DNA from: Candidatus Poseidoniales archaeon
GTDB taxonomy: Archaea; Thermoplasmatota; Poseidoniia; Poseidoniales; Poseidoniaceae
Assembly (NCBI GenBank): GCA_038106355.1
Contig: JAYODQ010000008.1
Coordinates: 3,904-67,903 of the forward strand
Reading direction: 5' to 3'
Length of the DNA: 64,000 bases
Below, piece after piece: positions 19,153 to 52,587 of this stretch. The stretch's first letter is position 1. The number at the start of each line of letters is the position of its first letter. The position numbers and the translations under genes are program-made. The notes under the pieces were generated by a model that had not been told where the DNA came from, ran no database searches, and was given only the letters and a program-made list of their open reading frames with translations.

Positions 19153-19188
19153 CGTTGCCCCTCTCGATGCACCGATTCATCATCTCCG

Positions 19189-19194
19189 TATAAA
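19189..19194 (-). promoter_or_regulatory. Candidate archaeal TATA box (TTTATA) for citrate synthase
   Basis: The minus strand reads TTTATA about 37 nt upstream of the gltA ATG (19152), in the only non-coding stretch there. Compatible with a short-leader or leaderless transcript. Confidence 0.35.
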
Positions 19195-19262
19195 TGCCCT
19201 ACCTCTCCTACATCAATGTCAAATATGGTGTTGGTATCTACACCTTTTGTGTTGCTTGGAAA

Positions 19263-19706
19263 TTATAATCTGAATCCTTTTGATGCTTCCCTGTCAGCCA
19301 AGACATGCATTCGAATTGTTTTCCCATCGATTTGAATTGCGTCGACAGATTCTATTCCAGGGCAAAGGAGTTTTATTTCGTTCCACTTTTGCTCACTGTG
19401 TAAGTTTTCAGCCCACCAAGGAAATGCTTTGCATTGCTGTGGCCGAACAGAGTAGATTGAGCATTGTTTTGTATCGTTGAGAAAGATGCATACTCCACTC
19501 TTTTCATCACTTTTCAGCACGATGCGCCCATTCATGCTTTCCGTACAATACTGTTCAATGAACTCATCAAAACTTTGTTCATGTTCATCTGCCATGCGTT
19601 GAACATCGATTTTGGTAAGAAAAACCACTCCTCCTGGTTGGTCGCAGCACTTTCCGCATTGAGGTTGGCAACCAAAACGAACCCCGTCGGACCACCAAGC
19701 ACTCAT
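19263..19706 (-). CDS. YkgJ-family CxxCxxCC zinc/iron-chelating protein (UPF0153)
   Basis: FGCQPQCGKCCDQPGGVVFLT...CIFL....CSIYSVRPQQCKAFPW. ATGA overlap with the upstream gene. Confidence 0.8.
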   Translation of the reverse strand: MSAWWSDGVRFGCQPQCGKCCDQPGGVVFLTKIDVQRMADEHEQSFDEFIEQYCTESMNGRIVLKSDEKSGVCIFLNDTKQCSIYSVRPQQCKAFPWWAENLHSEQKWNEIKLLCPGIESVDAIQIDGKTIRMHVLADREASKGFRL

Positions 19707-21616
19707 TCCTCTTCTCCGTGCATTGGTGAAAGCACACGTTTCTTTTTCATTGTTGAAAGGTGTACTTTCTTTTTTGGTTTGCTTCTTTGATCTTCGTGTT
19801 GGTCGAGTTCATTCAATTGAACATCACCTTCATCGATGAACCACTCTCCAGCGGGTTCATAGGAATCAAGTTGTGATGTTGTGCCCACGGTTTGCCCTTG
19901 GATCAACTGAAGCTGTTCATCAATGGTTTGAAGTTGGTCGGCAATGGCGATGAGTTCCTCAATATCAGCATGTTGAATTCTTGAACTCAATTCTTCCATG
20001 GTTGTACCTATTTGGCTCAATTGACGTTCATCATGCATAGCATGGAATCGCCTCGAAAATGAATCATCAACTCTTTGTTCGATATCAACGAGCATATCAG
20101 CAGTTTTGAACATGTCTTCCTTGTGGTCAAATTTTTCTTTTGAGACCATGAATTTGTCTTCATCATGAACATCAAGAACAGAGGGGTATGTAGGCATAAT
20201 TTTTTTGACAAACATCTGAGCATCGTTTTGTATTCTGGAAATTGGAGTGCCTTGAACAACAATATCATCAAAATGTGGTGGCTGATAATCATCATTGTCC
20301 CAATCCTTGATTTCTGAATGCAGTTCGACGCCTCCCATATCGATGTCCGTATGGACGACATCCAACGCCTTTGAAAATATTTGATTCGCCATCGACTCCA
20401 CATCGTTTTCAAACTCAGGATGGATGCCAGAATACCTGATTCCTGAGTCTTCGTTGAGATGAATGAATTCCTCTAGTTTGTTCCGAATGTTACGCCATGA
20501 GTGCTGGGAATTTCGAACAAGTTGAACAAATTCAAATTCATCCATCATCATGTTTCTTTGAGTTGCGTACCATTTAGCATATTGAATCAAGGTTGATTCA
20601 CTTGGTGATGAAATTTGAATTGTGATTCCATCCAGCAAAAATCTTCTCATTTTTGAACTTGGCAAATCTTCGATTGGGATTTTGGAGGATGCAAGGATCT
20701 GTACCGAGGATTGCAAACTATATTCAAACCACTCTCCCAGCCTTAATTTCCATTGTTCGTGAACCGCAAATTGTTCAATATCGTCAACAATGATTGCACA
20801 ACAACCATCCAATGCATCTTCGATCGGAGTTTGTGATACATGTTCTAAATCAAGTGCATTTAACCACAGAATGTGACCTTCCTGTCGACGCAAAAGAGCT
20901 TGTCCCGAAGCCCGCATCAAGAAGGTTGTTCCCGATTGTTCCCCCCCAACGATGGATAAAGGATTGATGACATTGGACGGGCTGTCGATGACTGTTTCTG
21001 CCAAACGCGTAGCTTCAATATTTTCTTTGCACACAAACCACTGTCGAAATGAATGATGTTCACTCCACTGTAATTTTCTTGGCCACTGAAATTGGATTGA
21101 TTTTTTCGATATAGATTTGTCATCGGCTTTCATTGCTGACGGAATTTGATGTATTGCCATGGACCGTTGCTCTTGTAAGACCTTCATCCAAAGTGGTGTT
21201 CCTACATGGTCCAGTCCCACATAGTCAAAGTCTGAATTCGCAGGTGCTCTTTCAATCGAATTGAGCTTGTTTTTTCTCATTTCATTCAATCGATTGGCAA
21301 TCGAAAATTCATCTGTTGATTGAATGTTTTTTGATAAAAATGGATTCTGATACTCACCAGTTGTGCCGAGGACATCCTTTGAAATCATATCGTAGGTAGG
21401 TCGTTGAGAAACACCTTGCCGATTGAAGAGGGATAGCCTCTGCTTTTTTTGATTTTGATGGCCGAGCAACACATTCAATTTGGACAATGGTTGGTCTGGA
21501 GCCTGTTCTTTTTTGGGTGTTGGATTGGAGAATTTCACGTGCTTAAATTCTGAATCCAAAAGCAATTTTTCAGCCGAGGCTAAAGCGTCATTGAGTTTTT
21601 TACCTCGGATTGACAT
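19703..21616 (-). CDS. DnaA/Hda-like AAA+ domain protein with degenerate Walker A, flanked by low-complexity and acidic coiled-coil regions
   Basis: aa 188-387: F.QWFVCKENIEA....NPLSIVGGEQSGTTFLMRA....CAIIVDDIEQF....QILASSKIP.EDL.SSKMRRFLLDGITIQISSPSEST parallels DnaA domain III (FDNFV.G.N..A, NPLFIYGG.GLGKTHL, LLIDDIQF, SDR.P, RL.SRF..GL...I..Pd.Et). The Walker A Lys is missing. Confidence 0.6.
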   Translation of the reverse strand: MSIRGKKLNDALASAEKLLLDSEFKHVKFSNPTPKKEQAPDQPLSKLNVLLGHQNQKKQRLSLFNRQGVSQRPTYDMISKDVLGTTGEYQNPFLSKNIQSTDEFSIANRLNEMRKNKLNSIERAPANSDFDYVGLDHVGTPLWMKVLQEQRSMAIHQIPSAMKADDKSISKKSIQFQWPRKLQWSEHHSFRQWFVCKENIEATRLAETVIDSPSNVINPLSIVGGEQSGTTFLMRASGQALLRRQEGHILWLNALDLEHVSQTPIEDALDGCCAIIVDDIEQFAVHEQWKLRLGEWFEYSLQSSVQILASSKIPIEDLPSSKMRRFLLDGITIQISSPSESTLIQYAKWYATQRNMMMDEFEFVQLVRNSQHSWRNIRNKLEEFIHLNEDSGIRYSGIHPEFENDVESMANQIFSKALDVVHTDIDMGGVELHSEIKDWDNDDYQPPHFDDIVVQGTPISRIQNDAQMFVKKIMPTYPSVLDVHDEDKFMVSKEKFDHKEDMFKTADMLVDIEQRVDDSFSRRFHAMHDERQLSQIGTTMEELSSRIQHADIEELIAIADQLQTIDEQLQLIQGQTVGTTSQLDSYEPAGEWFIDEGDVQLNELDQHEDQRSKPKKKVHLSTMKKKRVLSPMHGEEE

Positions 21617-23511
21617 TAAGAGTCACCACCAAAAAACTTCAATTTTCGACCTTGTTCATCGTACAACACTTGAGCATTCGATTGTGATTTTTTGATATCC
21701 ACTGCCCACTTTTTCGAAATTTCATCAAGGGATTTCTTTTGTTGAGCGTATGTCGCTTTCTCTCTTGATGCAATCAGTGAAGAATGATCCTCCGCCATAT
21801 GAGATTCAATGGCTTCTTTTGGTGAATCTTCAAATTTGAGTTTCGATGGGGCTTGGGTGTGTGGAAATGAAGCATTGGAGGCGTAATCGGAATTTGATAG
21901 ACTTTCACCGATGCCTTGCATATGAAGTGGTAACTTCGAAGATTGAGGAGGTGCCAGTCGTTCTTGTCGTTCATACGATTCTTGAATGACGTTCGGGGGA
22001 AGTTTGTGTGGCTTCTTGATTTCTGGCAAGGATAATTCGTCAATTGGCGTATGGCGAAATCCGATCTCCTTCGGAGCTGATTTTTGCACTTTGGTTTCTG
22101 GAAGAACTGGATTTGGTTTTCGTTGAGGTTGCTTCTGAACTTTTCGAATTTTTACAGCCTTATGCTTGTCGTTTTGAGATGATGTTCTCATGCTTTTCCA
22201 TGAAATCTGGTGTTGATTTGGGTCCTCATAAATTTTGGATTCTGAAACAAATTTTCCGGGTTGAACATGGGGGTGGTTTGACATTGACCTCCAAGTCTCG
22301 AGGTCGCTCAAGTCAACACTGCTTTGTGTGTTATGACTTGATGGATTTGAAAAGGAGTCAAGTGCACCTTTGAGTGAATCCGCTACTTCAGCACGAAGTT
22401 CATCACTTAGTTTTGAACTGCCGCCCTCGAGACCGAATGTGTTTTGTGGCTCAAAAGAGGCGTCAGACTGTGCCATGAGTTCGAGTTGTGCTTCAAACCA
22501 ATGTTCCTCTTCATCGGTATAGTTCTCATGAAATGAATCAAGCGACATTTCTTCCGGATGCTCCGCCCACATCTGAATCGTTGTTGTCTCAAGTTGGTTT
22601 GTGGCTTGATGCACCTTTGCAGTTGTTTTTTGATCGAGCACATCACTATCGAAACCAATGAACATTGTAAAGCGTCGTTCTCTGCATAAATCGACGGTTG
22701 AACGAAGTAATTCAAGAGCAAACAACTCTCCATGAACAACAACGAAGAGTTCAAAATCCAGTAAAAAAATGCAACCAAAATCAACGCCGAACATCGAATG
22801 TTCAATAGTACTGAGGATTTGTTGTAATTCATGTTGCTGATGTTGGCCAACATGGATGCACTCAAAATGAGTTGACGATGAGGGCCGGTTTGAGATCTCT
22901 AGAATGTGACAACCTGTTTGTTGAAGATAACCAAGGATTGGTGGAATATTGATTTGTCCAATACTTGGAAAACTGTAAGCAGTACCTCGTTCCAATCCAC
23001 GAATCAATTGAGTGTTTTGCTTTTCATTTCTTTTCCTTGAGAACTCAAGCGAAGCAAAATCATGTGCAAGGTCTTTTGTGTCAAATCTCATATGATGTGT
23101 TTGATATCGTACATTTTTCCACCAATCTGTTGAGCCAATGTGTTCGCTTGAAATCAAGTCGAATAGCAGCACACTTGGGGGGTACATGTCTTGTACACTG
23201 TAGATAAGGGCAACATTTGCTTCGTGAAATGCGATGGTGACATTGCTCTTTTCGGCTTGAATTTGAATCAGCTCAAAGGCATCGACACCAAACGATTCTC
23301 CAAGTTGTGATGCTATGGATAGATGAGGTTGTCCATTTTTGAAATAAATTGCCCCCTCAAAGGCTGAATCGTCCGTCTCATCTGAGATAATATGAAGAAC
23401 TGCAGATATTTTCTCGCGGATGATTTCTTGACCAAGGGTGCGTAAGACATCAATACCACCCCTCCTCTTTTCAAGAAGGTCACCAGTCGGTAAATGCACC
23501 AATTCATCCAC
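21616..23511 (-). CDS. Hypothetical protein: DUF4388-like N-terminal module, DUF835-like (P-loop-less KaiC/RecA-like) module, long Q/K/S/P-rich tail
   Basis: aa 8-100 pattern GDLLEK..IDVLRTL...ISAVLHI...EGAIYFKNGQ. aa 165-305 LERGTAYSF...ILEISNRP...CIFLLDFELFVVVHGELFALELLRSTVDLCRERRFTMFIGFDSDVLD. Its stop shares one nt with the next ATG (TAATG). Confidence 0.55.
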   Translation of the reverse strand: MDELVHLPTGDLLEKRRGGIDVLRTLGQEIIREKISAVLHIISDETDDSAFEGAIYFKNGQPHLSIASQLGESFGVDAFELIQIQAEKSNVTIAFHEANVALIYSVQDMYPPSVLLFDLISSEHIGSTDWWKNVRYQTHHMRFDTKDLAHDFASLEFSRKRNEKQNTQLIRGLERGTAYSFPSIGQINIPPILGYLQQTGCHILEISNRPSSSTHFECIHVGQHQQHELQQILSTIEHSMFGVDFGCIFLLDFELFVVVHGELFALELLRSTVDLCRERRFTMFIGFDSDVLDQKTTAKVHQATNQLETTTIQMWAEHPEEMSLDSFHENYTDEEEHWFEAQLELMAQSDASFEPQNTFGLEGGSSKLSDELRAEVADSLKGALDSFSNPSSHNTQSSVDLSDLETWRSMSNHPHVQPGKFVSESKIYEDPNQHQISWKSMRTSSQNDKHKAVKIRKVQKQPQRKPNPVLPETKVQKSAPKEIGFRHTPIDELSLPEIKKPHKLPPNVIQESYERQERLAPPQSSKLPLHMQGIGESLSNSDYASNASFPHTQAPSKLKFEDSPKEAIESHMAEDHSSLIASREKATYAQQKKSLDEISKKWAVDIKKSQSNAQVLYDEQGRKLKFFGGDS

Positions 23512-23606: not shown

Positions 23607-23981
23607 GTGGAATTCGTTGCCAGTCCGTTATCTCCTGATGAGGAGGTTCTTTTTGAACACGGAAGGCTCTTGTTCAATGCAGGTAAATATTGGCATGCTC
23701 ACGAATCTTGGGAGGATGTATGGAATTGCCTTAAGCGAAGAAATGCAACGCCTGAAGAAATCCTTCTCGTTCAAGGCCTGATTCAAACAGCAGCATTGTT
23801 GTATCATCATGAGCATAAGAATCATGTAGGAATTCTAAAACAATGGGCGAAGTTGGTAACCAAACTCGATGGATGGGAGCATGCTTGGGGTGTGGATGTA
23901 AAAAAACATCTTCAGACCATCAAATCATTTGTAAGTGAGGAAGGAATCGTCAATATTGAACCAAATACAGTTCAATTATGA
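23607..23981 (+). CDS. DUF309 domain protein
   Basis: FNAGKYWHAHESWEDVW....QGLIQTAALLYHHE matches the DUF309 signature. GTG start. Confidence 0.75.
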   Translation: MEFVASPLSPDEEVLFEHGRLLFNAGKYWHAHESWEDVWNCLKRRNATPEEILLVQGLIQTAALLYHHEHKNHVGILKQWAKLVTKLDGWEHAWGVDVKKHLQTIKSFVSEEGIVNIEPNTVQL

Positions 23982-23990
23982 GGTGAACAC

Positions 23991-24674
23991 ATGGAAAAGG
24001 CCACCCAACATATGACTTTTTCACCAAAGGTTCAAATCGGGCGGAACTCTATTCCAAGCAAATTTGAGCATTTACCGCAAGATATGATTCTCTTTTTTGA
24101 TACACCAATTGGTAAGAATGCTTACCACAATGATTTCAAGAAATTGATGACCAGCGTAAGTATTTTCTTGGCTTTGACCGCTTTATTTTTGACAGTCCTC
24201 TTCCTCATTGTTTTACCTCTCGTTTGGATTGTTTCGAAAAAATCACTCACATCAAAACACAACCTACCACTTGCAGTAAACATATCTCACCCATTTGTCG
24301 ACCAAGAATTTGGCGGGACTGCAAAAGTTCTGGTTCAATTGTTCGATGGCCATTGGGTTGATGTGGGGGAAGTACGAGTTCGAGTCATGCGCGATGAACT
24401 TCAAGGTGGCTGGCTCCTCGTTGAAGACCAAGGTGAGTATCCGACAATTGGTTATTTCAGCGAACGAAGCGAACGATTTGTCAATCGCTCATTAACAATC
24501 ATCAATCAAGCACTGGCATTGAGAGACGGGGCCAACAATGTACGTGACACCATTGATGATGCAAGACAACGAGAACGAATGGAGTCAGGATTGCTTGAAA
24601 GGTCGTGGCTTGAAGATGAACAGGGGATAGAAATCGACACTCCCCTCACTCGAATTTTTACCAAAAACGAATAA
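23991..24674 (+). CDS. Hypothetical single-pass membrane protein
   Basis: 227-aa ORF with one TM (VSIFLALTALFLTVLFLIVLPLVWIV). No family recognised. Confidence 0.45.
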   Translation: MEKATQHMTFSPKVQIGRNSIPSKFEHLPQDMILFFDTPIGKNAYHNDFKKLMTSVSIFLALTALFLTVLFLIVLPLVWIVSKKSLTSKHNLPLAVNISHPFVDQEFGGTAKVLVQLFDGHWVDVGEVRVRVMRDELQGGWLLVEDQGEYPTIGYFSERSERFVNRSLTIINQALALRDGANNVRDTIDDARQRERMESGLLERSWLEDEQGIEIDTPLTRIFTKNE

Positions 24675-24730
24675 TTCTTGACAATGAACACCCCTTAGAT
24701 TCAAAACCTAAACCTCATCCCTTCTCATCA

Positions 24731-25354
24731 GTGTCTTATCAAAATTGGATGAACAACCTTCAAAAATTGGAGGATAAAGAACGAGAAGTACTTCTCGGTA
24801 CATCCTTATCACAATTGTTTACAAAATGGCCACTATGGCTGAATCATCCAGCAAATATTTCTGCGTTTTATGGGATACTTGTATCTCTTTCGCTCATTTT
24901 ACCCTACGCATTTGGGGCATCTGGAAATGAAGCGTGGTTCGAAAAATGGACGGTCCATTCTGCATTTTTGGTCGTCGCTTGTTCAATTTCCGGCTTTGCA
25001 TCAACCCTCATTGTGTTCTTCTCAAAGCGATTCCCAGTCCAACCACCTCGGACTTTGCTCTACCCAATGCCTTTCGTTGGTTTAGCCCTTATCACGATAG
25101 ATCGAACGGGCTTGATTTCGCTCTCCTCCTTCGTGACCTTGATTTGGATGTTGTTGCTTTTTCCTGGGCCGCTGTATGTCCATCTTTCGTGGGCACCAAG
25201 GCATCGATTACTTTGCATGATTGAAGATGGAAAAAATCCATTTTCGGGTCTTGAATCTGAAGAAGATTTCAATGGAGAACGAAGCGAAGAGAGGTCAGAA
25301 CAAGAAACTGAACTCTTCGAAGTGATTGAGGCATTTGACACTGAAGAAGAGTAG
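24731..25354 (+). CDS. Hypothetical multi-pass membrane protein with acidic C-terminal tail
   Basis: Four to five predicted TM helices and an E-rich tail. The start is GTG 24731 or ATG 24749. Confidence 0.45.
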   Translation: MSYQNWMNNLQKLEDKEREVLLGTSLSQLFTKWPLWLNHPANISAFYGILVSLSLILPYAFGASGNEAWFEKWTVHSAFLVVACSISGFASTLIVFFSKRFPVQPPRTLLYPMPFVGLALITIDRTGLISLSSFVTLIWMLLLFPGPLYVHLSWAPRHRLLCMIEDGKNPFSGLESEEDFNGERSEERSEQETELFEVIEAFDTEEE

Positions 25355-32863: not shown

Positions 32864-34363
32864 ATGACATTCATGAACAATGTTGCCCACCGCACATTTA
32901 TGGGGATACTCGACCAAGTCGATTTTGCTGTCTTCAAACAAAAAGAAACATGGCAGGCATTTGGAATTGCTGTTGTTTTGTTTGTTTCAATTTCTTTTGC
33001 GGCATTGAGTATGTTTGATAGCATGGATGAATTGTTTCAATCCGATGCTGAACCTGCTCCTGTCCCGAATATAGTTTTTCAATCGCTCAATCGAGATATA
33101 GAGCAGAATGTGACCAACGAGACGGGTTGGATTCAACTCGAAGAGCACCGAGGAAGTGTTATCATTTTTGATATGATGGCACACGATTGCAGCAACTGCC
33201 ACTCGGTACAAGCTCACCTTGAAGAAAAGATGGAGCAATGGGACGAACTTGCCAATGCTTCTGGTCGAGATTTGAAGATTTTTGCCTATGGTGCCTGGTA
33301 TGGTGAAACGCTAGAATACCTCAACCAATCATCCGGTGAATACACAGTGCCACTCTATCCTACAGGTTTAGGTTCCGTCAATGCTGCGATACTTGACGAT
33401 GGTACCACAACAGACCCAGTACGGCTTTTCACCACCGCAGGTACAGGTCAAATTCCGGTTGTTCTGATCATTGATGAAGAAGGTTACATCATAGCCCAGC
33501 AACCTACCGGGACGCCGAAAGATAAATGGGTCCATTTCGATGGAATGCTTGAGAAAACATTGACTCAAGGCGTTGAGGCAACGGCATCAGAACGAATTGC
33601 CTGGGAAGAGCCGTCTACATCCTATATTGCTGTCTTCGCTCTCGGCATGATTTTATCCATATTGGTCTACTTTTCACCTTGTGCATTTCCGGTGCTCCCC
33701 GGATTCATTTCGTATTACCTCTCACTTGGGGCAAGGGAAGATGAACTTATTGAGGTGGGGAAATTGAAAAAGAAGATGCCAAATTCCTTCGTTATCGGGT
33801 CACTTTCAGGTTTTGGAATGTGGACATTTTTTGCACTCATTGGCATTGTCGCTCTCCTTATGGGGCAAGCATTTGCTCAATCAGGAATTATTCATTACAT
33901 CGCACTTTTCGTAGCGATTTTACTCATCATTCTTGGTGGAATGATGCTTCTTGGTGTGACGACGCACATCATGGGATTTGTCCAAAAATTTGTGGACAAA
34001 TACAGTACGACAGAAGCAGATGAAACATTCACCCCGCGCCGAAACATGTACTTGTATGGCATTGGGTATGCCGCAGCATCAATCGATTGTACTGCAGCAG
34101 CCGTGTTACCTTTCGTCGTATTTTTGTCAACTCTTGGTTCAACGGCCATTGGATTTGGAATTGGGGGTCTTATGGTAGGTCTGCTGATTTTGATGATTGC
34201 AGTCACCGGGCTCGTTGGCATGGGCAGGCAAGTCATGATAAATTTCCTGCGACGTGCAACAGCGACCATTAAATTGGTGGGCTCTTGGATGATGATGATG
34301 GCTGGCGTCGGCTTGACCATCTACCTCACGAGACCAGATATCGTCAATTCCATTTTCAGCTAA
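32864..34363 (+). CDS. Thioredoxin-like domain fused to CcdA/DsbD-type thiol:disulfide transporter
   Basis: N-terminal TM, extracytoplasmic Trx-like domain with CSNC (MAHDCSNCH), then a CcdA core with FSPCAFPVLPGFISYYL and a second half containing a Cys (AAASIDCTAAAVLPF). Confidence 0.8.
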   Translation: MTFMNNVAHRTFMGILDQVDFAVFKQKETWQAFGIAVVLFVSISFAALSMFDSMDELFQSDAEPAPVPNIVFQSLNRDIEQNVTNETGWIQLEEHRGSVIIFDMMAHDCSNCHSVQAHLEEKMEQWDELANASGRDLKIFAYGAWYGETLEYLNQSSGEYTVPLYPTGLGSVNAAILDDGTTTDPVRLFTTAGTGQIPVVLIIDEEGYIIAQQPTGTPKDKWVHFDGMLEKTLTQGVEATASERIAWEEPSTSYIAVFALGMILSILVYFSPCAFPVLPGFISYYLSLGAREDELIEVGKLKKKMPNSFVIGSLSGFGMWTFFALIGIVALLMGQAFAQSGIIHYIALFVAILLIILGGMMLLGVTTHIMGFVQKFVDKYSTTEADETFTPRRNMYLYGIGYAAASIDCTAAAVLPFVVFLSTLGSTAIGFGIGGLMVGLLILMIAVTGLVGMGRQVMINFLRRATATIKLVGSWMMMMAGVGLTIYLTRPDIVNSIFS

Positions 34364-35067: not shown

Positions 35068-36297
35068 TTAAGAAAGGGAATGACCGCACATTGGACATGC
35101 CTTCCAATCGTGTTGGATAGCATTATGGCATGATGGACAAACAGGTCCTGAAGGGGTTGCAGATCGGTCTTCAATACCCTGTTGTGCTTGAGGCATTGTG
35201 TCTGCAACTTTTTGAGCAGTTTGTTGTTTCAAGAATTCTTGCATTACTTCTGGTGTGAGTGCACCATTTTGTGCAGCCATTTCCATCATTTGACGTTGCA
35301 AATCATTCTGGGAATCCATTCTCTGGTTTTGAAAATTCATCTGCTGAGCCATTCGTTCTTGCTTCTTTTGTTGAACCTGTTCAAACAATGCCATCGCTTG
35401 TTCTGTTTTGTGTGATGATTTTTTCATTTCAAGTTCAGCTTGAGCGGTGTCCCGTTTGAGTTCAGCCTCCCAGCGTGCCTCTTCTGCTCGTAAGTCTTTG
35501 AGTTCGCGTTCAAGTTCAATTGCAACTTCACCTGCCTCTTTGGCCTTTGCAATGTTTACTTCAAATTCGATTCTTCGTAATGTGGCAGCTTCACTTAACT
35601 CGATTTTTCGAATTTCTGCTTCAGTGTTTGCTTCATCGGTTTCGGTTGCGTATTTTAAATTCGCACGAAGTGAGTTCACTCTTTCCATATCCGTAGGGTT
35701 TGTGATGAGCATCGATTTGAGCAAGGTAAGTCCGAGTGTCGACAAATAGGGCCTTAATTCCATCTCAGAACGAATTTCAAAGGTTTCTTGGAGTTTGTAT
35801 CCTCGAAGTTCTTCGACCGAGGTCACAGTTTGAAGAAGTGGGCTGACAAGACGATGGCTCACTTCCTTTGATAGGATTGCAGCGAGTTTCATTCGATCGA
35901 GTGTTGGCTCATGATTTGCAAAAATATTCAGCAGTTTGGGGATGTCATCTTTACGGAATTGGACACGGAGTTGAGCAATACCTTGGGCAGATTGTCCATC
36001 GGAAAGCGTTGTTACAAATGGGATGCTCAAGTCAAATGGACCGGTCATTGCAAAAAGCAATCTGCGATCTGTCGCCGTAGCACCGAGCATGTCACCAATG
36101 TATCGACCAATGCCTCCACCTACATTTCGAACGATGTCTTCGCTTACGATGTCGCCAATTCGTCCATCGACGATGAAGGCACATGCTTCGTTTGGTTTGA
36201 GAACAACCTCCTGTGCTCGCCAAGTTTGAATTGTTCTTCCATCGATTAATCGTGCAATAATTGTGGGGTTATCTCTCCATGCAAATTGTTTCGCCAT
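35068..36297 (-). CDS. SPFH/band-7-like protein with coiled coil and C-terminal zinc ribbon (COG4260-like)
   Basis: N-terminal SPFH-like region (FIVDGRIGDIV...LRVQFRKDDIPKLLNIF), a long E/A/K/R coiled coil, and C-terminal CPSCHNAIQHDWKACPMCGH. I chose the start at MAKQF (36297), 4 nt after the upstream stop. Confidence 0.75.
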   Translation of the reverse strand: MAKQFAWRDNPTIIARLIDGRTIQTWRAQEVVLKPNEACAFIVDGRIGDIVSEDIVRNVGGGIGRYIGDMLGATATDRRLLFAMTGPFDLSIPFVTTLSDGQSAQGIAQLRVQFRKDDIPKLLNIFANHEPTLDRMKLAAILSKEVSHRLVSPLLQTVTSVEELRGYKLQETFEIRSEMELRPYLSTLGLTLLKSMLITNPTDMERVNSLRANLKYATETDEANTEAEIRKIELSEAATLRRIEFEVNIAKAKEAGEVAIELERELKDLRAEEARWEAELKRDTAQAELEMKKSSHKTEQAMALFEQVQQKKQERMAQQMNFQNQRMDSQNDLQRQMMEMAAQNGALTPEVMQEFLKQQTAQKVADTMPQAQQGIEDRSATPSGPVCPSCHNAIQHDWKACPMCGHSLS

Positions 36298-36301
36298 AGT
36301 A

Positions 36302-36838
36302 TCACATCTTTTTCTTCGTTCGTAGTCCATTAAGAACTGTGACTCGTTCACCAAAATATCCTCGACAACTCGATATCATTTGCTGACATTGCAAAGCGAG
36401 TTGTTTGGTCATGTCGTAATCACTCTCTTGCAATGTTTTTTCGGCGCTGTTGGAAATATTTACCGCTTTGGTAATCATCTCAATTGTGTCGTGGTCATGT
36501 TTGATGAGTTTTTTGAGGTCGCTGTTGCTTGCAGAACGTTGACCCGAAAGAAATGCATGGTCCATTCCAGTGACTGCTTTATCCACATCTTCTATGAACG
36601 CATCAATTTCCTGCATACATGAACGACAAGCCGATGTCACTTCGAGTTTGTCATCGCGGAAACTTTGGTCATGAATATTCTGAATGTGACTTCTTGCTCG
36701 ATTTGAAGCACGAACAAGTTCATCCCGAACCAATTTATCCGCATCTCTTCGTTTACCTTTGGTGTATCCACTGTAACCTGTAAGGACAACTTGAATGCCC
36801 CGTATATAAGGAATTATATCGAGAGGCGTGCCTACCAT
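36302..36838 (-). CDS. Hypothetical all-helical protein co-transcribed with the SPFH protein
   Basis: 178-aa ORF 4 nt upstream of the SPFH gene. Predicted helical; no family recognised. Confidence 0.5.
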   Translation of the reverse strand: MVGTPLDIIPYIRGIQVVLTGYSGYTKGKRRDADKLVRDELVRASNRARSHIQNIHDQSFRDDKLEVTSACRSCMQEIDAFIEDVDKAVTGMDHAFLSGQRSASNSDLKKLIKHDHDTIEMITKAVNISNSAEKTLQESDYDMTKQLALQCQQMISSCRGYFGERVTVLNGLRTKKKM

Positions 36839-36884: not shown

Positions 36885-37532
36885 TCATCCCTGAATTTGA
36901 ATATCCTTCCATCTCAAAATCCGGTCAGATACAGCCTCTGCTTCTTTTTCATCATGAGTAACAAAAATGGCGGATTTATTCATCGTTTTAATCCACTCGT
37001 GAAAGTCACTTGCTATGTTCATTTTTTGTTCTTGATCGACTGACGCAAAAGGCTCATCGAGTAACATAATGTCATTCCTTTGGGCGTGAGCCCTTGCAAA
37101 TGCAACTCTTTGAGCCTCTCCACCAGACAAGTGATTGACATTTCTATCGGAAAGGAATTGAATGTTCGTGAATTCAAGGGATTGTTTGGCAGCATTCATT
37201 TGGTCAAGTTTTGACATTTTTTTGTCCACGCCAAGCATCACATTCTCTAACACATTCAAATGAGGATATAGCACTGGACTTTGAAACATATAGGTGATAT
37301 TTTGGAAAGGATATTTTGTCCAACGTTGTGCAGTGCCTTCAATATAAACTTCACCCTGTGATGGCTGAAGTAAACCGCAAGCGATTTTGAGCAACGTCGT
37401 TTTTCCACATCCAGATGGGCCAATGATTCCAAGAATTTCACTTCGATGAAGTGTAAGATTGCATTTGTGCAAAATAGTGGTCTCGTTTATGATCATTGAA
37501 ATATCCTGGACTTTGAGTACTTCTTCGTTCAT
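36885..37532 (-). CDS. thiQ: Thiamine ABC transporter ATP-binding protein (ThiQ-like, short form)
   Basis: Walker A GPSGCGKTT, LSGGEAQRV, Walker B IMLLDEP, H-loop VTHD. At 215 aa it has no C-terminal regulatory domain, as in ThiQ. Overlaps the permease stop. Confidence 0.8.
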   Translation of the reverse strand: MNEEVLKVQDISMIINETTILHKCNLTLHRSEILGIIGPSGCGKTTLLKIACGLLQPSQGEVYIEGTAQRWTKYPFQNITYMFQSPVLYPHLNVLENVMLGVDKKMSKLDQMNAAKQSLEFTNIQFLSDRNVNHLSGGEAQRVAFARAHAQRNDIMLLDEPFASVDQEQKMNIASDFHEWIKTMNKSAIFVTHDEKEAEAVSDRILRWKDIQIQG

Positions 37533-39289
37533 TTTGATTCACCACGTTTTGCTTGAGCACGATCGATAATGACGAGGCAAGTGAAGGTGAGAATCATCAG
37601 AATTGTTGCCACAACCATAGAAAGAGGATACGCGATTGGGTCAAATTTCGGTCGCGAAAGTAAAGTATCGACAAGTAAGGAAAGTGATGACCACGATTCG
37701 AACCGAACAACAAGGAACGATGCACCAAATTCCCCAACCGAGAATGCAAACGATAAAGAAATCACAACGATAAATACGCTTTTCAAATGAATACCAAAAC
37801 CTAACCAGTACGATTTGACGATTGAACGACGCAAAAGCTTGGCTTGTTCAAAAAATCGAACATCGATTCTTTGAAGAGCTGGATGAACAATTCGTAGTGC
37901 AAAGGGAAAGGTAAGGAAGATGTGGGGGATGGCTGGTAACATTCTCCATTGTAATAACGACGGGGCGAAGGAAATCATGCCTATCGAAATTCCAAGGCCC
38001 AATGTCACTGCTGAAATGAAAACGGGAAAGATGCACATGAATTCCATAACATGTGCTATTTTCTGATGTCCTCTTCTTTCAATTTCAAGCAGTGAGAAAC
38101 TCACCAACAATGTCAATGGCAAAACGACTAGTATTGTCACGCCTGCATAAAGAAGTGAATTAGCTAATGCCGAAAACACTGAAATGCCGTCAAAATGCCC
38201 GAAGAGAGCGGCCTCCCATGCTTCAAACGTCCAATAAAAACCTCGAGGTGATGCATTTGAACGAATTTGAAAGGATGAAGCGAGAATCGAAATGTACGGA
38301 AGCAACACCAATCCAGTCAAACCCCACATCAAAGCCTTCGCACCAAAAGGTGGAATTTCTTGTCGATTGAAGTGTTCTTGTTCGGAAATAATTTTGTAGG
38401 ATTGATTCATTTTTTCCCTTTGAACATGAAATAAAAGAAAAACCAATGACAACGCAAGGAATTGTAAAATTGTTGATGCAAGGACAAGTCTTGTCGCATC
38501 AAGCCTATACCCTTCAATTCCTGCAAATTGTCCGAATGTCGCTGATAATGATTCCAAGGAGTGCTGAGTTGGTGTGAGCCAACGTATCATAGCAAACGAT
38601 GTAAATGAGAAAAAGAAAGAAAACAACCAGGCCGTTAACATTGAGCCGCCGAGAAAAGGCAACCAAAAATGTCGAAAACGATACCATCGATACCTCCCCA
38701 TTGGCAACAGTAAAAACTGCATTTCCCAGTCCGGATGCAACGTTGTAATCCTTGGTTCTAAATAACGAATGAACAAAGAAATGTTGAACCATGCATGAGC
38801 CAAAATAAGAAGAAGAATCATTCCAAACTTTTCGATACCGATGATTGAACCTAGTTTTGAAATCCAATGTTCGGAGGATTGTAAGTCAATGCCGATCGAT
38901 TGCAGAATCCCTTGGTCCGATGACATTGCGAGGAAACCTGCTGCAGCAACGATTGAAGGAGTAATGAAGGGTAATGTAAACACACTTCGCAAGATATTCT
39001 TGTGCTTCCATGAATATCGGCTAAGCAACCATGCAATTGGAATTCCAATACACAATGCTACCGTAGCAGAAACAACTGCCTGAAGTATTGTAAATCGTAA
39101 TGTATCCACGAAGAGGGAATGTTGCCCGATGAATTCAACGAATTCAAGAAAAGTCCAATCTGAAACCATCATGAGTTGTGACAGGGCTAGGAGAATTGGG
39201 AGAATTGTCAATACAAAGACCGTGAGGAGCAACATGTATGGTCCAGCAATTTGTGCTTTTGAAAGATGCACGTTCCCCATTGAATTCAA
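37529..39289 (-). CDS. thiP: Thiamine/iron(III)-type ABC transporter permease, duplicated (ThiP-like)
   Basis: 586 aa, about 12 TM, two BPD-transporter halves. Overlaps both flanking genes by 4 nt. Confidence 0.78.
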   Translation of the reverse strand: MNSMGNVHLSKAQIAGPYMLLLTVFVLTILPILLALSQLMMVSDWTFLEFVEFIGQHSLFVDTLRFTILQAVVSATVALCIGIPIAWLLSRYSWKHKNILRSVFTLPFITPSIVAAAGFLAMSSDQGILQSIGIDLQSSEHWISKLGSIIGIEKFGMILLLILAHAWFNISLFIRYLEPRITTLHPDWEMQFLLLPMGRYRWYRFRHFWLPFLGGSMLTAWLFSFFFSFTSFAMIRWLTPTQHSLESLSATFGQFAGIEGYRLDATRLVLASTILQFLALSLVFLLFHVQREKMNQSYKIISEQEHFNRQEIPPFGAKALMWGLTGLVLLPYISILASSFQIRSNASPRGFYWTFEAWEAALFGHFDGISVFSALANSLLYAGVTILVVLPLTLLVSFSLLEIERRGHQKIAHVMEFMCIFPVFISAVTLGLGISIGMISFAPSLLQWRMLPAIPHIFLTFPFALRIVHPALQRIDVRFFEQAKLLRRSIVKSYWLGFGIHLKSVFIVVISLSFAFSVGEFGASFLVVRFESWSSLSLLVDTLLSRPKFDPIAYPLSMVVATILMILTFTCLVIIDRAQAKRGESK

Positions 39290-51792: not shown

Positions 51793-52587
51793 TTAATCAC
51801 TGCGTAATTTCACGATGAGTCGGACCATTTCAATGTAAATCCAAATCAGTGTGATAAGGAGGCCAAAAGCAGCATACCACTCAAATTTCTTTGGCGCTCC
51901 ATGACTGACAGACGACTGGATGAATCCAAAGTCACTCACGAGCATCAAACCCCCCACACCTAGAACCAGAACCGAGAATCCAATGCCGTATGGTCCATTG
52001 TCATGAAGGAAAGGCATTTGAGCACCGAAGAGTTGCATGATGAACGATATCAAGTACAACAACACGATGGTCAGAACCAAACTGTACACAATTTTGTTGA
52101 ATGTAGGTGTTGGTCGAATCACTTTGCTTGCGTAAAGGCCATACATCACTCCACAGAGGATTGCTGTTCCAAACACAGCCTGGAGTATCAATCCCGGAAA
52201 AATGATTTCCAAGACACTTGAAAGTCCACCAATAAACATGCCTTCTACTACGGCATAAATGGTCATCAAGGTTTGCGGATTTTCTGGCTGAGTAAAATAA
52301 ATGACAAGTACAAGAACAAACCCAACAATCGCTCCCATAGAAGTCAGTCCATAGACCAGAGCAAGATTTTCGAGCGAGGAAAGTGCGATCGCACTCGTTA
52401 TGATTGCACTCAAAAGCAGAATTCCAGTGAGGTAACCAATTTTATTCATCGTTCCCTCAAACGTCATTCTGTTGGAATCTTGCATATTTGACCAAAAATT
52501 GGTGTTCATTACCGGATTGCTGTTTGAATAGACCATGTGCCTCAACCACTGATTCGAGGAGTTCTCCTTTAATGTTATGATACTCAA
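51793..52587 (-). CDS. Bax-inhibitor-1/YccA-family membrane protein
   Basis: Seven TM. The N-terminal SNSNPVM motif is typical of the COG4760/BI-1-like group. The true start may be M18 (52536). Confidence 0.8.
   Translation of the reverse strand: MSIITLKENSSNQWLRHMVYSNSNPVMNTNFWSNMQDSNRMTFEGTMNKIGYLTGILLLSAIITSAIALSSLENLALVYGLTSMGAIVGFVLVLVIYFTQPENPQTLMTIYAVVEGMFIGGLSSVLEIIFPGLILQAVFGTAILCGVMYGLYASKVIRPTPTFNKIVYSLVLTIVLLYLISFIMQLFGAQMPFLHDNGPYGIGFSVLVLGVGGLMLVSDFGFIQSSVSHGAPKKFEWYAAFGLLITLIWIYIEMVRLIVKLRSD

What the first reader, a model, noticed from the sequence alone, without database searches (positions are those of the whole stretch)
19263..23511. Translationally coupled 3-gene operon of unknown function: DUF4388/DUF835-like protein, dead DnaA-like AAA+ protein, YkgJ Fe-S/Zn protein
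Seen in sequence: the three minus-strand ORFs are fused at their junctions. TAATG at 21614-21618 joins genes 1 and 2, and ATGA at 19703-19706 joins genes 2 and 3, implying stoichiometric co-expression. Gene 1 has a roughly 100-aa N-terminal module resembling DUF4388/PATAN-type domains and a P-loop-less KaiC/RecA-like DUF835-type module (aa about 165-305). It ends in about 320 aa of Q/K/S/P-rich low-complexity sequence. Gene 2 has a 185-aa low-complexity N-terminus, a DnaA/Hda-type AAA+ core and an acidic coiled-coil tail. Gene 3 is a CxxCxxCC (UPF0153) protein. Inference: I know of no characterised system with this combination. Two degenerate NTPase-fold scaffolds with long disordered tails plus a redox/metal protein could suit a structural or regulatory assembly (chromosome, division or polarity related) better than an enzyme pathway.
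Basis: partly seen in the sequence, partly recalled or inferred. Interest (0 to 1): 0.75.

Follow-up and report, generated by a model that had tools for sequence, protein, structure and literature searches.

The report
Coupled DUF835, DnaA-like, CxxCxxCC archaeal operon
Marine Group II archaea (Poseidoniales) carry a conserved, tightly coupled gene trio whose core is an inactive KaiC-like protein paired with a bacterial-DnaA-type AAA+ protein that lost its ATP-binding lysine during the group's evolution; no function has been described for it.

Summary
Three minus-strand ORFs (631, 637 and 147 aa) are joined by TAATG and ATGA start/stop overlaps.

- **Gene 2** has a DnaA domain-III AAA+ core by Pfam, by profile search against PDB sequences and by Foldseek. 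Its Walker A reads GGEQSGTT, with no lysine. It has no DnaA domain I or IV.
- **Gene 1** has a RecA/KaiC-fold central domain. The window protein does not hit Pfam DUF835, but all 10 distant homologues scanned do, above the cutoff.
- **Gene 1 N-terminal domain:** the proposed DUF4388/PATAN assignment found no profile support.
- **Gene 3** is a CxxCxxCC (PF03692) protein.
- **Conservation:** the trio and its overlaps recur in 57 Poseidoniales-type species genomes. The gene 1-gene 2 pair persists in deeper relatives.
- **New result:** those deeper relatives keep a canonical GxxGxGK[ST] Walker A. One clade has K->R, and crown Poseidoniales have K->C/T/I/G. The ATPase was therefore lost stepwise while the partnership was kept.

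No viral, defence or replication-gene context was found, and no literature describes the module.

Best reading: an obligate two-protein scaffold or switch complex with a metal-binding accessory protein. The cellular process it serves is unknown.

Interest is moderate to high.

The parts
21616..23511 (-). Gene 1 (631 aa, GTG start): family-specific N-domain, a linker, a DUF835/inactive-KaiC domain, and a disordered tail of about 300 aa carrying conserved short motifs.
   Evidence: ORF. Homologues: only 49 clusters at E <= 1e-3 among 1.84 billion representatives. Alignments.
23212..23511 (-). Gene 1 N-terminal domain (about aa 1-100). Invariant residues are G10, E14, R16 and G18 (GD..E.RRGG). 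It is predicted as a small alpha/beta module and remains unassigned.
   Evidence: Alignment A4. AlphaFold pLDDT is only about 50-60. No DUF4388 hit; 1 of 28 domains gave a weak DUF2226 hit at E = 0.015. No PDB sequence hit.
22537..23004 (-). Gene 1 central RecA/KaiC-fold domain (aa 170-325), a divergent DUF835 with no Walker A.
   Evidence: pLDDT about 80-89. Foldseek matches RecA, FlaH, KaiC, DMC1/RAD51 and Elp4-6 at E from 1.6e-4 to 3e-3 over about 165 columns. Ten of 10 distant homologues hit PF05763 at 1e-10 to 1e-17 in the equivalent position.
21619..22536 (-). Gene 1 disordered tail (aa 326-631). Conserved islands: EGGS (~362), R..Q..P.RK..P.LP (~456-471), RE.....Q (~583-590), and W602 plus LY.E.G..L (616-624).
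   Evidence: pLDDT below 50. Conservation across 51 unique orthologues. The tails differ completely in deep lineages.
21614..21618 (-). TAATG junction: gene 1 stop overlaps gene 2 start by 1 nt.
   Evidence: A -4 or -1 overlap occurs in 57 of 59 loci.
19703..21616 (-). Gene 2 (637 aa): basic disordered N-region, DnaA-type AAA+ core, helical hairpin, and an acidic tail ending in GEEE.
   Evidence: ORF. Pfam and NCBIfam hits. Homologues. Structure model.
21062..21616 (-). Gene 2 N-terminal region (aa 1-185, net charge +10). Conserved islands: SKLN.LLG (45-52), SLF..GV.QRPTYD (62-76), and vG...dG.PvW..vL...Rg (133-152).
   Evidence: Mostly pLDDT below 50.
20432..21061 (-). Gene 2 AAA+ core (aa 186-395), homologous to DnaA domain III, including the lid and the sensor-II-like W374-R375.
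   Evidence: PF00308 E = 1.1e-5. TIGR00362 at 4.5e-13 and TIGR03420 at 2.6e-11, both far below their equivalog cutoffs. Family profile against B. subtilis DnaA, 7e-11. Foldseek 8bv3_A: E = 4e-13, target-normalised TM 0.73, rmsd 3.3 A.
20924..20947 (-). Degenerate Walker A, G224-GEQSG-T230-T231, with Thr where the lysine should be.
20780..20785 (-). Walker B D278-D279, invariant in every orthologue.
19895..20122 (-). Gene 2 long helical hairpin (aa 499-574), acidic.
   Evidence: pLDDT about 82, helices 499-548 and 552-574. Composition.
19706..19717 (-). Gene 2 C-terminal GEEE, conserved in crown Poseidoniales. Variants are SEEE and AEEE in two other lineages; it is absent in the deepest ones.
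19703..19706 (-). ATGA junction: gene 2 stop overlaps gene 3 start by 4 nt.
   Evidence: A -4 overlap occurs in 63 of 66 loci.
19263..19706 (-). Gene 3 (147 aa), CxxCxxCC/UPF0153 (YkgJ-type) cysteine-rich protein. It is the most conserved of the three, at 51-56% identity to most Poseidonia-type loci where gene 1 is 21-25% and gene 2 is 29-34%.
   Evidence: PF03692 E = 4.4e-12. Identities. Conservation. Cysteines at positions 13, 17, 20, 21, 54, 73, 82, 92 and 115.
23607..25354 (+). Possibly associated, divergently transcribed genes: DUF309 (23607-23981) and two membrane proteins (23991-24674, 227 aa; 24731-25354, 207 aa). The 207-aa protein ends in a conserved acidic peptide ..ELLEVVDAFESEE(E).
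   Evidence: Pfam. The membrane-protein pair lies next to gene 1 in crown and deep lineages. C-terminal conservation. The functional link is inferred only.

Best explanation
Genes 1 and 2 most likely encode the two subunits of one obligate, lineage-specific complex. Gene 1 is an inactive KaiC-like (DUF835) protein and gene 2 is a DnaA-type AAA+ protein. The pair has been inherited together since before the Poseidoniales radiated.

In the ancestor the AAA+ subunit was probably a nucleotide-driven switch, because deep relatives keep an intact Walker A. In crown Poseidoniales, including this genome, the P-loop lysine was lost while the Walker B aspartates, the sensor-II-like arginine, the overall fold and the partner gene were kept. 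The module would therefore now act as a nucleotide-independent, or at most nucleotide-binding but non-hydrolysing, assembly platform.

The folded RecA-like and AAA+ cores would dock on each other or oligomerise. The long disordered tails carry clade-conserved short motifs and opposite charges: the gene 1 tail and the gene 2 N-region are basic, and the gene 2 C-region is acidic and ends in GEEE. These tails would recruit partners.

Gene 3, a strongly conserved cysteine-rich metal-binding protein, is co-translated as an accessory or client. The divergently encoded membrane-protein pair is a candidate anchor.

What is shown: the domain identities, the motif decay, and the conservation of order and overlap. 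What is inferred: physical interaction, loss of ATPase activity, and the scaffold role. The cellular process served is unknown.
For: - **Pairing:** genes 1 and 2 are adjacent in every locus with enough flank, including the divergent ones. Upstream ORFs match the gene 1 N-domain HMM at 1e-13 to 1e-28.
- **Coupling:** the start/stop overlap is present in 57 of 59 loci.
- **Depth:** the pair persists in deep lineages L067, L068 and L070.
- **Domain identities:** gene 2 resembles DnaA domain III. Gene 1 is DUF835 with a RecA fold.
- **Walker A series:** GK[TS] in L060, L067, L068 and L070/71; GRS in L062, L063, L065 and L066; GC/T/I/G-S in crown Poseidoniales; GTT in the window. The Walker B DD is invariant throughout.
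- **Tails:** they are disordered but carry conserved islands, with complementary charges.
- **Gene 3:** it stays adjacent even where it is inverted.
- **Context:** the locus is chromosomal, not viral or defence-related.
- **Precedent:** DUF835 is treated as an inactivated KaiC domain that serves as a response-regulator output in archaea (PMC5847659). This fits a protein-protein interaction or signalling role.
Against: - No interaction test could be run, because no multimer prediction was available.
- The wider neighbourhood is also syntenic in these genomes: membrane pair, trio, citrate synthase, GDPD, PAP2 and TatC. Conserved adjacency is therefore weaker evidence than it would be in a shuffled background.
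- About 13% of other same-strand junctions in this compact window also overlap.
- Loss of the Walker A lysine does not prove loss of nucleotide binding.
- No known process or partner is implicated by the gene neighbourhood.
Confidence: 0.45

Rival explanations
1. Replication or cell-cycle regulator. Gene 2 would be an archaeal counterpart of Hda/DnaA-type regulators. It would act on the Orc1/Cdc6 initiator, which belongs to the same AAA+ initiator clade, or on the sliding clamp. Gene 1 would be its adaptor.
For: - The closest sequence and structure relatives of gene 2 are DnaA domain III and Hda.
- Like Hda, gene 2 has domain III only, with no DNA-binding domain IV.
- A sensor-II-like WR is kept.
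- An invariant ..SLF.. motif sits in the disordered N-region. It loosely recalls bacterial clamp-binding peptides of the QL[SD]LF type; that comparison rests on my own recollection and was not tested.
Against: - None of the window ORFs scanned with Pfam hit an Orc1/Cdc6, MCM or PCNA family, and the related loci show no Orc1/Cdc6, MCM or PCNA gene next to the trio.
- Scores against the Hda and DnaA equivalog models are far below cutoff: 43.5 against 194.8, and 49.1 against 343.9.
- The Hda sequence is not detected by the family profile at E <= 0.01.
- The SLF motif is absent from deep lineages, while QRPTYD is more widely conserved.
- Archaea use PCNA, not the beta-clamp.
- The residue at the position of the Box VII arginine finger is not invariant.
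Confidence: 0.15
2. Membrane-linked signalling module. The divergently encoded membrane proteins would sense a signal and pass it to the DUF835 protein. The AAA+ protein would be the downstream effector or hub, in the manner proposed for KaiC-like hubs in archaea.
For: - DUF835 occurs as an output domain of archaeal response regulators, as in REC-DUF835 (PMC5847659).
- The two membrane-protein genes lie next to gene 1 in all lineages, including deep ones.
- The 207-aa membrane protein has a conserved acidic C-terminal peptide ending in EE(E), echoing the GEEE end of gene 2.
Against: - No receiver, kinase or other recognised signalling domain is present.
- The membrane proteins have no family assignment.
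- In L069 other genes (Zip, TerB) lie between them and gene 1.
- General synteny could explain the adjacency.
Confidence: 0.2
3. Functionally unrelated neighbours. The three genes are packed and overlapped only because the genome is streamlined. Their linkage reflects frozen synteny, not a shared function.
For: - The window is 96% coding.
- Five of 38 other same-strand junctions also overlap by 4 or 1 nt.
- Flanking housekeeping genes are equally syntenic across Poseidoniales.
- Gene 3 evolves much more slowly than genes 1 and 2 and is on the opposite strand in L067 and L068.
Against: - Genes 1 and 2 remain adjacent and co-oriented even in deep lineages whose flanks have changed. They overlap by 4 nt in L068 and L070, and are separated by a 55-nt gap in L067.
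- Both families are essentially confined to the same clade. Gene 1 has only 49 clusters among 1.84 billion representatives. Gene 2 loci were found only in Poseidoniales-type genomes.
- Other overlapping pairs in the window include subunits of one system, such as the glycine-cleavage P subunits.
Confidence: 0.12

Closest known systems
Bacterial DnaA (domain III AAA+ module) and its paralogue Hda
   Same: - Gene 2 aa 186-395 aligns to DnaA domain III from the F..F..g.N..A box through Walker A and B to the sensor-II R.lE box.
- The best structural matches are B. subtilis, Aquifex and Thermotoga DnaA domain III, then Hda.
- Like Hda, it is a domain-III-only protein.
   Different: - It is archaeal and chromosomal.
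- It has no domain I or domain IV HTH.
- The Walker A lysine is replaced by Thr.
- The segment between Walker A and Walker B, where the initiator-specific motif lies, is 6-8 residues shorter.
- It carries a 185-aa disordered N-region, a helical hairpin and an acidic GEEE tail.
- It is always preceded by a DUF835 gene.
- It fails the DnaA and Hda equivalog cutoffs.
DUF835 (PF05763), the 'inactivated KaiC' domain of archaea
   Same: - RecA/KaiC fold without a P-loop.
- Distant family members score above the PF05763 cutoff at the equivalent position.
- Archaeal distribution.
   Different: - The window protein is too divergent to hit the Pfam model directly.
- The architecture differs: a new N-domain plus a tail of about 300 aa, instead of REC or PAS modules (PMC5847659).
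- It is obligately paired with a DnaA-type AAA+ gene.
ArlH/FlaH and other single-domain KaiC-like proteins that dock on hexameric ATPases
   Same: FlaH (4yds) is among the best structural matches of the gene 1 core. The idea of a RecA-like adaptor bound to an oligomeric ATPase gives a working analogy; that analogy comes from my own knowledge.
   Different: FlaH binds ATP and belongs to the archaellum operon. Gene 1 lacks Walker A, and its neighbour is an AAA+ protein, not a secretion ATPase. No archaellum genes lie nearby.
SSV-type 'DnaA-like' AAA+ ATPases of archaeal viruses and plasmids (arCOG07960)
   Same: These are the only DnaA-like ATPases discussed for archaea in the papers found (PMC4158269, PMC6563490).
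   Different: They are markers of mobile elements. Gene 2 lies in a conserved housekeeping neighbourhood, has no PHROG hit, has no relative in IMG/VR, and has no integrase or viral genes nearby.
YkgJ/UPF0153 CxxCxxCC proteins (PF03692)
   Same: Gene 3 matches the full domain at 47 bits against a cutoff of 23 and keeps the cysteine pattern.
   Different: The family itself has no established function. Only in this clade is it linked to the DUF835 and DnaA-like genes.

Membership tests
DnaA/Hda AAA+ family (Pfam Bac_DnaA PF00308) | Domain III AAA+ homology above the family threshold | tested here: met
   PF00308 scores 26.2 bits against a cutoff of 23, E = 1.1e-5. Deep relatives score up to 66 bits. 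Family profile against B. subtilis DnaA, 7e-11. Foldseek 8bv3_A, E = 4e-13, target-normalised TM 0.73.
DnaA/Hda AAA+ family | Canonical Walker A GxxGxGK[ST] | tested here: not met
   The window has G224-GEQSG-T230-T231. Crown Poseidoniales have C, T, I or G at the lysine position, and one clade has R. Only the deep relatives L060, L067, L068 and L070 have GK[TS].
DnaA/Hda AAA+ family | Walker B acidic pair | tested here: met
   D278-D279 is invariant in all 60 unique orthologues.
DnaA (chromosomal initiator, TIGR00362) | Full-length equivalog score; domain I and the domain IV DnaA-box-binding HTH | tested here: not met
   TIGR00362 scores 49.1 bits against a cutoff of 343.9, matching aa 164-386 only. 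No Bac_DnaA_C or other HTH hit. The C-terminal half is a helical hairpin plus disorder.
Hda (TIGR03420) | Equivalog score; short protein with an N-terminal clamp-binding motif; partner DnaA and beta-clamp in the genome | tested here: not met
   43.5 bits against a cutoff of 194.8. Hda sequences are not found by the family profile at E <= 0.01. The protein is 637 aa. The host is an archaeon. Whether this genome has DnaA or a beta-clamp was not checked beyond the window.
DUF835 (PF05763, inactivated KaiC) | Match to the Pfam model | tested here: inconclusive
   The window protein has no hit at E <= 10, and 1 of 11 close members hits at 0.13. In contrast, 10 of 10 distant homologues retrieved with the family profile score 40-64 bits against a cutoff of 33.1, at the equivalent position. 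Membership is therefore by transitive homology.
DUF835 (PF05763, inactivated KaiC) | RecA/KaiC-like fold lacking Walker A | tested here: met
   Foldseek matches RecA, FlaH, KaiC, DMC1, RAD51 and Elp4-6 at probability 1.00. No GxxxxGK[ST] in aa 170-325 of any orthologue.
DUF4388 / PATAN domain | Match to PF14332 or another PATAN profile | tested here: not met
   No hit at E <= 10 for 11 full-length members, at E <= 1 for 10 distant homologues, or at E <= 10 for 28 isolated N-domains. The only hit was one weak DUF2226 match at 0.015. The model confidence for this domain is low, pLDDT about 50-60. A profile-profile test such as HHpred could not be run.
CxxCxxCC / UPF0153 (PF03692) | Match above cutoff with the cysteine pattern | tested here: met
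   47 bits against a cutoff of 23, covering profile positions 2-84 of 85. The C..C..CC motif and downstream cysteines are conserved at 90% or more. Metal or Fe-S binding is not testable here.
KaiC proper | Tandem RecA domains with Walker A/B and autophosphorylation sites | tested here: not met
   Gene 1 has a single RecA-like domain with no Walker A.
SSV-type DnaA-like ATPase of archaeal mobile elements (arCOG07960) | Association with viral, plasmid or integrase genes | tested here: not met
   No PHROG hit, no IMG/VR relative, no PADLOC hit, and housekeeping flanks. Direct comparison with arCOG07960 sequences was not done.

The most novel reading that the evidence does not exclude
Poseidoniales and their relatives may have co-opted a bacterial-type initiator AAA+ module (DnaA domain III) together with an inactive KaiC-like partner. 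The result would be a new, order-wide cell-cycle or chromosome-organising apparatus built from two pseudo-NTPases with motif-bearing disordered arms. It may be tethered to the membrane by the divergently encoded membrane-protein pair. The natural series GK[ST] -> GR[S] -> GC/T[S/T] would record its conversion from an ATP switch into a pure scaffold.
Probability: 0.15. Interest if true: 0.85.

Novelty: new variant of a known kind. Interest (0 to 1): 0.6.

Why it matters
[quoted passage not shown] A module found in all 57 Poseidoniales-type species genomes that the search returned is therefore part of the unexplained core biology of a globally important group.

DnaA-type AAA+ proteins are a bacterial hallmark. 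A chromosomal, vertically inherited archaeal branch of this family, always paired with an inactive KaiC-like protein, was not described in any paper I could find.

The graded loss of the Walker A lysine across related lineages is a natural experiment in how an ATPase turns into a pseudo-enzyme. It supplies ready-made active and inactive orthologues for biochemistry.

Tried and rejected
- **DUF4388/PATAN for the gene 1 N-domain.** Three Pfam scans and a PDB profile search gave nothing. I keep it only as a sequence-pattern resemblance.
- **Direct DUF835 hit.** It fails for the window protein. The assignment was rescued through distant homologues.
- **Third homologue search with the gene 1 alignment.** It returned only the same 12 clusters.
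- **Hda membership.** Rejected on scores.
- **Clamp-binding or PIP reading of the SLF motif.** The motif is not conserved in deep lineages. I keep it as a low-probability lead.
- **Mobile-element or defence origin.** No PADLOC, PHROG or IMG/VR hits.
- **Origin proximity.** None of the window ORFs scanned hit an Orc1/Cdc6, MCM or PCNA family.
- **Promoter and terminator scan.** Uninformative, because it uses bacterial consensus sequences on an archaeon.
- **Literature.** Searches for DnaA in Marine Group II or archaea, PF00308 with archaea, and DUF835/DUF4388 found no description of this module. The mBio 2017 paper on KaiC-like hubs was not available.
- **Co-variation of gene 1 tail motifs with the gene 2 GEEE end.** Deep-lineage tails are too divergent to align.

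Full report
**1. Observation**

Read on the minus strand, the first junction is ...tcttaATGtca. The TAA stop of gene 1 shares one base with the ATG of gene 2. The second junction is ...gaggaATGAgtg, a 4-nt overlap.

The window is about 96% coding. Seven of 40 same-strand neighbour pairs overlap in this way, or 5 of 38 once these two are excluded. An overlap is therefore not rare in itself. The evidence lies in its conservation, described in section 5.

**2. Organism and setting**

Source names of homologues, and the titles of 57 species-representative genomes, place the locus in Poseidoniales (Marine Group II archaea). Two loci carry bacterial MAG labels, which are probably binning errors.

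The flanks are housekeeping genes. On one side lie DUF309, two membrane proteins, an aminotransferase and an Obg-like GTPase. On the other lie citrate synthase, GDPD, PAP2, TatC and a PHP-domain protein. Further out are ABC transporters, PheRS, FolD and the glycine-cleavage system. None of the ORFs scanned hit an Orc1/Cdc6, MCM or PCNA family or any viral or defence family.

**3. Gene 2**

- **Profile hits.** Pfam Bac_DnaA matches aa 186-313 just above its cutoff (26.2 against 23 bits). NCBIfam DnaA and Hda equivalog models match aa 164-386 at 4.5e-13 and 2.6e-11, far below their full-length cutoffs.
- **Profile against PDB.** A profile of 17 orthologues finds B. subtilis DnaA at 7e-11. It aligns from the N-terminal F..F..g.N..A box to the sensor-II R.lE box.
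- **Structure model.** The AlphaFold model is confident for aa ~190-390 (pLDDT 75-89) and for a helical hairpin at aa 499-574.
- **Fold search.** Foldseek ranks DnaA domain III first (8bv3_A: E = 4e-13, target-normalised TM 0.73, rmsd 3.3 A), followed by Hda and then clamp-loader subunits.
- **Missing domains.** There is no DnaA domain I or IV.
- **Catalytic motifs.** Walker A reads G224-GEQSG-T230-T231, with Thr at the lysine position. Walker B D278-D279 and a sensor-II-like W374-R375 are kept.
- **Flanking regions.** The N-terminal 185 aa are basic (+10) and mostly disordered, with conserved islands SKLN.LLG and SLF..GV.QRPTYD. The C-terminal 240 aa are acidic (-28) and end in an invariant GEEE.

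**4. Gene 1**

- **Direct scans.** No Pfam or NCBIfam hit appears even at E <= 10.
- **Rarity.** A profile search of 1.84 billion representative proteins found only 49 clusters at E <= 1e-3.
- **DUF835 by transitive homology.** All 10 distant full-length members that I scanned hit DUF835 (PF05763) above its cutoff, at 1e-10 to 1e-17, in the position equivalent to aa ~170-325.
- **Fold.** That segment is the only confidently modelled part (pLDDT 80-89). It matches RecA, FlaH, KaiC, DMC1/RAD51 and Elp4-6 in Foldseek at E from 1.6e-4 to 3e-3 over about 165 columns. It has no Walker A in any orthologue.
- **What DUF835 is.** It has been classed as an inactivated KaiC domain used as a response-regulator output in archaea (PMC5847659).
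- **N-terminal domain.** This domain of about 100 aa carries the invariant signature GD..E.RRGG and is family-specific. DUF4388/PATAN is not detected by any scan, and one of 28 sequences gives a weak DUF2226 hit.
- **Tail.** aa 326-631 is predicted disordered but carries islands conserved across about 50 species: EGGS, R..Q..P.RK..P.LP and LY.E.G..L. Deep lineages have quite different tails.

**5. Gene 3 and conservation of the arrangement**

Gene 3 is a full-length CxxCxxCC/UPF0153 protein (47 bits). It is the slowest-evolving of the three. Against most Poseidonia-type loci it is 51-56% identical, where gene 1 is 21-25% and gene 2 is 29-34%.

In loci from 57 species-representative genomes, plus metagenome contigs, genes 1, 2 and 3 are adjacent wherever the flank is long enough. 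Five divergent loci where tblastn missed gene 1 do carry an upstream ORF that matches the gene 1 N-domain HMM at 1e-13 to 1e-28. Gene 1/gene 2 overlap by 4 or 1 nt in 57 of 59 loci. Gene 2/gene 3 overlap by 4 nt in 63 of 66.

Deeper relatives keep the DUF835-DnaA pair:
- L070 keeps the 4-nt overlap between genes 1 and 2, with gene 3 lying 27 nt downstream.
- L068 keeps the 4-nt overlap, with gene 3 adjacent but on the opposite strand.
- L067 has the pair on the same strand, separated by a 55-nt gap, again with gene 3 on the opposite strand.

The invariant core is therefore gene 1-gene 2, and gene 3 is a persistent neighbour. One caveat applies: the wider block is also syntenic across Poseidoniales, so adjacency alone is weaker evidence than in a shuffled background.

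**6.

The Walker A of gene 2 forms an evolutionary series:
- **Deep relatives** have canonical P-loops: GSFGSGKT in L068, GDKGVGKT in L070/71, PGNGKS in L060 and GEGLGKS in L067.
- **One clade** (L062, L063, L065, L066) has GGTGRS.
- **Crown Poseidoniales** have C, T, I or G at the lysine position.
- **The window's clade** has GGEQSGTT.

Walker B DD never changes. Deep relatives also score much higher against Bac_DnaA, up to 66 bits. The family thus descends from a probably active DnaA-type ATPase. That ATPase lost its P-loop lysine within the group, while its partner gene, fold and coupling were retained.

**7. Interpretation**

The best-supported reading (confidence about 0.45) is an obligate complex of an inactive KaiC-like protein and a DnaA-type AAA+ protein. 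It began as a nucleotide switch and now acts as a scaffold or adaptor. Its disordered, oppositely charged arms, each carrying short conserved motifs, would recruit partners. Gene 3 would be a co-translated metal-binding accessory.

The divergent membrane-protein pair lies next to gene 1 in all lineages. One of its members ends in a conserved acidic peptide ..AFESEE(E) that echoes the GEEE end of gene 2. It is a candidate anchor or sensor.

The rivals are:
- an Hda-like replication or cell-cycle regulator (0.15);
- a membrane-linked signalling module (0.2);
- unrelated genes packed together by genome streamlining (0.12).

Physical interaction, loss of ATPase activity and the process served are all inferred, not shown.

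**8. Comparison with known systems, and novelty**

At the domain level, gene 2 belongs to the DnaA/Hda AAA+ family but fails the tests for being DnaA or Hda. Gene 1 belongs to DUF835 by transitive homology and by fold. Gene 3 belongs to PF03692.

The only DnaA-like ATPases discussed for archaea in the papers I found are SSV-type proteins of mobile elements (PMC4158269, PMC6563490). The context of gene 2 is unrelated to those. No paper describing this module turned up.

I rate it a new variant of known kinds, of moderate to high interest. It is a conserved, undescribed core module of an abundant uncultured archaeal order, and it carries a built-in evolutionary series from enzyme to pseudo-enzyme.

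Noticed in passing
window 23607-25354 (+): DUF309 plus two membrane proteins of unknown family (227 aa and 207 aa) are transcribed divergently from gene 1. The membrane-protein pair lies next to gene 1 in crown and deep lineages. The 207-aa protein ends in a conserved acidic peptide ..ELLEVVDAFESEE(E), and the 227-aa protein ends in ..ERSWLEEE..VESPLVSFF...
   Followed up: partly
window 52584-57491 (-): A 1635-aa protein with five Lamin-tail domains (E = 7e-79) and two PLD-like domains (E = 4e-38). This is an unusual, large, probably extracellular architecture.
   Followed up: no
window 32864-34363 (+), 35068-36354 (-), 37529-39289 (-): Three large ORFs (499, 428 and 586 aa) have no Pfam hit at 1e-5. 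The 586-aa ORF sits in a chain of 4-nt-overlapping genes with a solute-binding protein.
   Followed up: no
L041 and L065: These contigs come from MAGs labelled Verrucomicrobiales and Salinimicrobium. They carry the Poseidoniales-type gene 2-gene 3-citrate synthase locus, which probably reflects bin contamination in the public assemblies.
   Followed up: no
L009:7572-8001; L043: In L009 gene 2 is called as a truncated 497-aa protein after a 428-nt gap. In L043 the nearest start lies 282 nt after the gene 1 stop. These are the exceptions to the conserved overlap and probably reflect assembly or frameshift errors.
   Followed up: no
L067:10372-10851 (-), L068:6323-6853 (-): In two deep-branching relatives the CxxCxxCC gene is still next to the DnaA-like gene but on the opposite, convergent strand.
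   Followed up: yes
L062 (and L063, L065, L066): In these divergent loci the gene 2 Walker A reads GGTGRS (Arg at the lysine position), gene 2 ends in PEEG or AEEE, and gene 1 is only 566 aa in L062.
   Followed up: partly
window 19153-19262: A 110-nt spacer separates gene 3 from the downstream citrate synthase gene. On the minus strand it contains a short hairpin (GGTGT..ACACC) and a TTTATA element just before the citrate synthase start. This suggests the trio is a transcription unit separate from citrate synthase.
   Followed up: no
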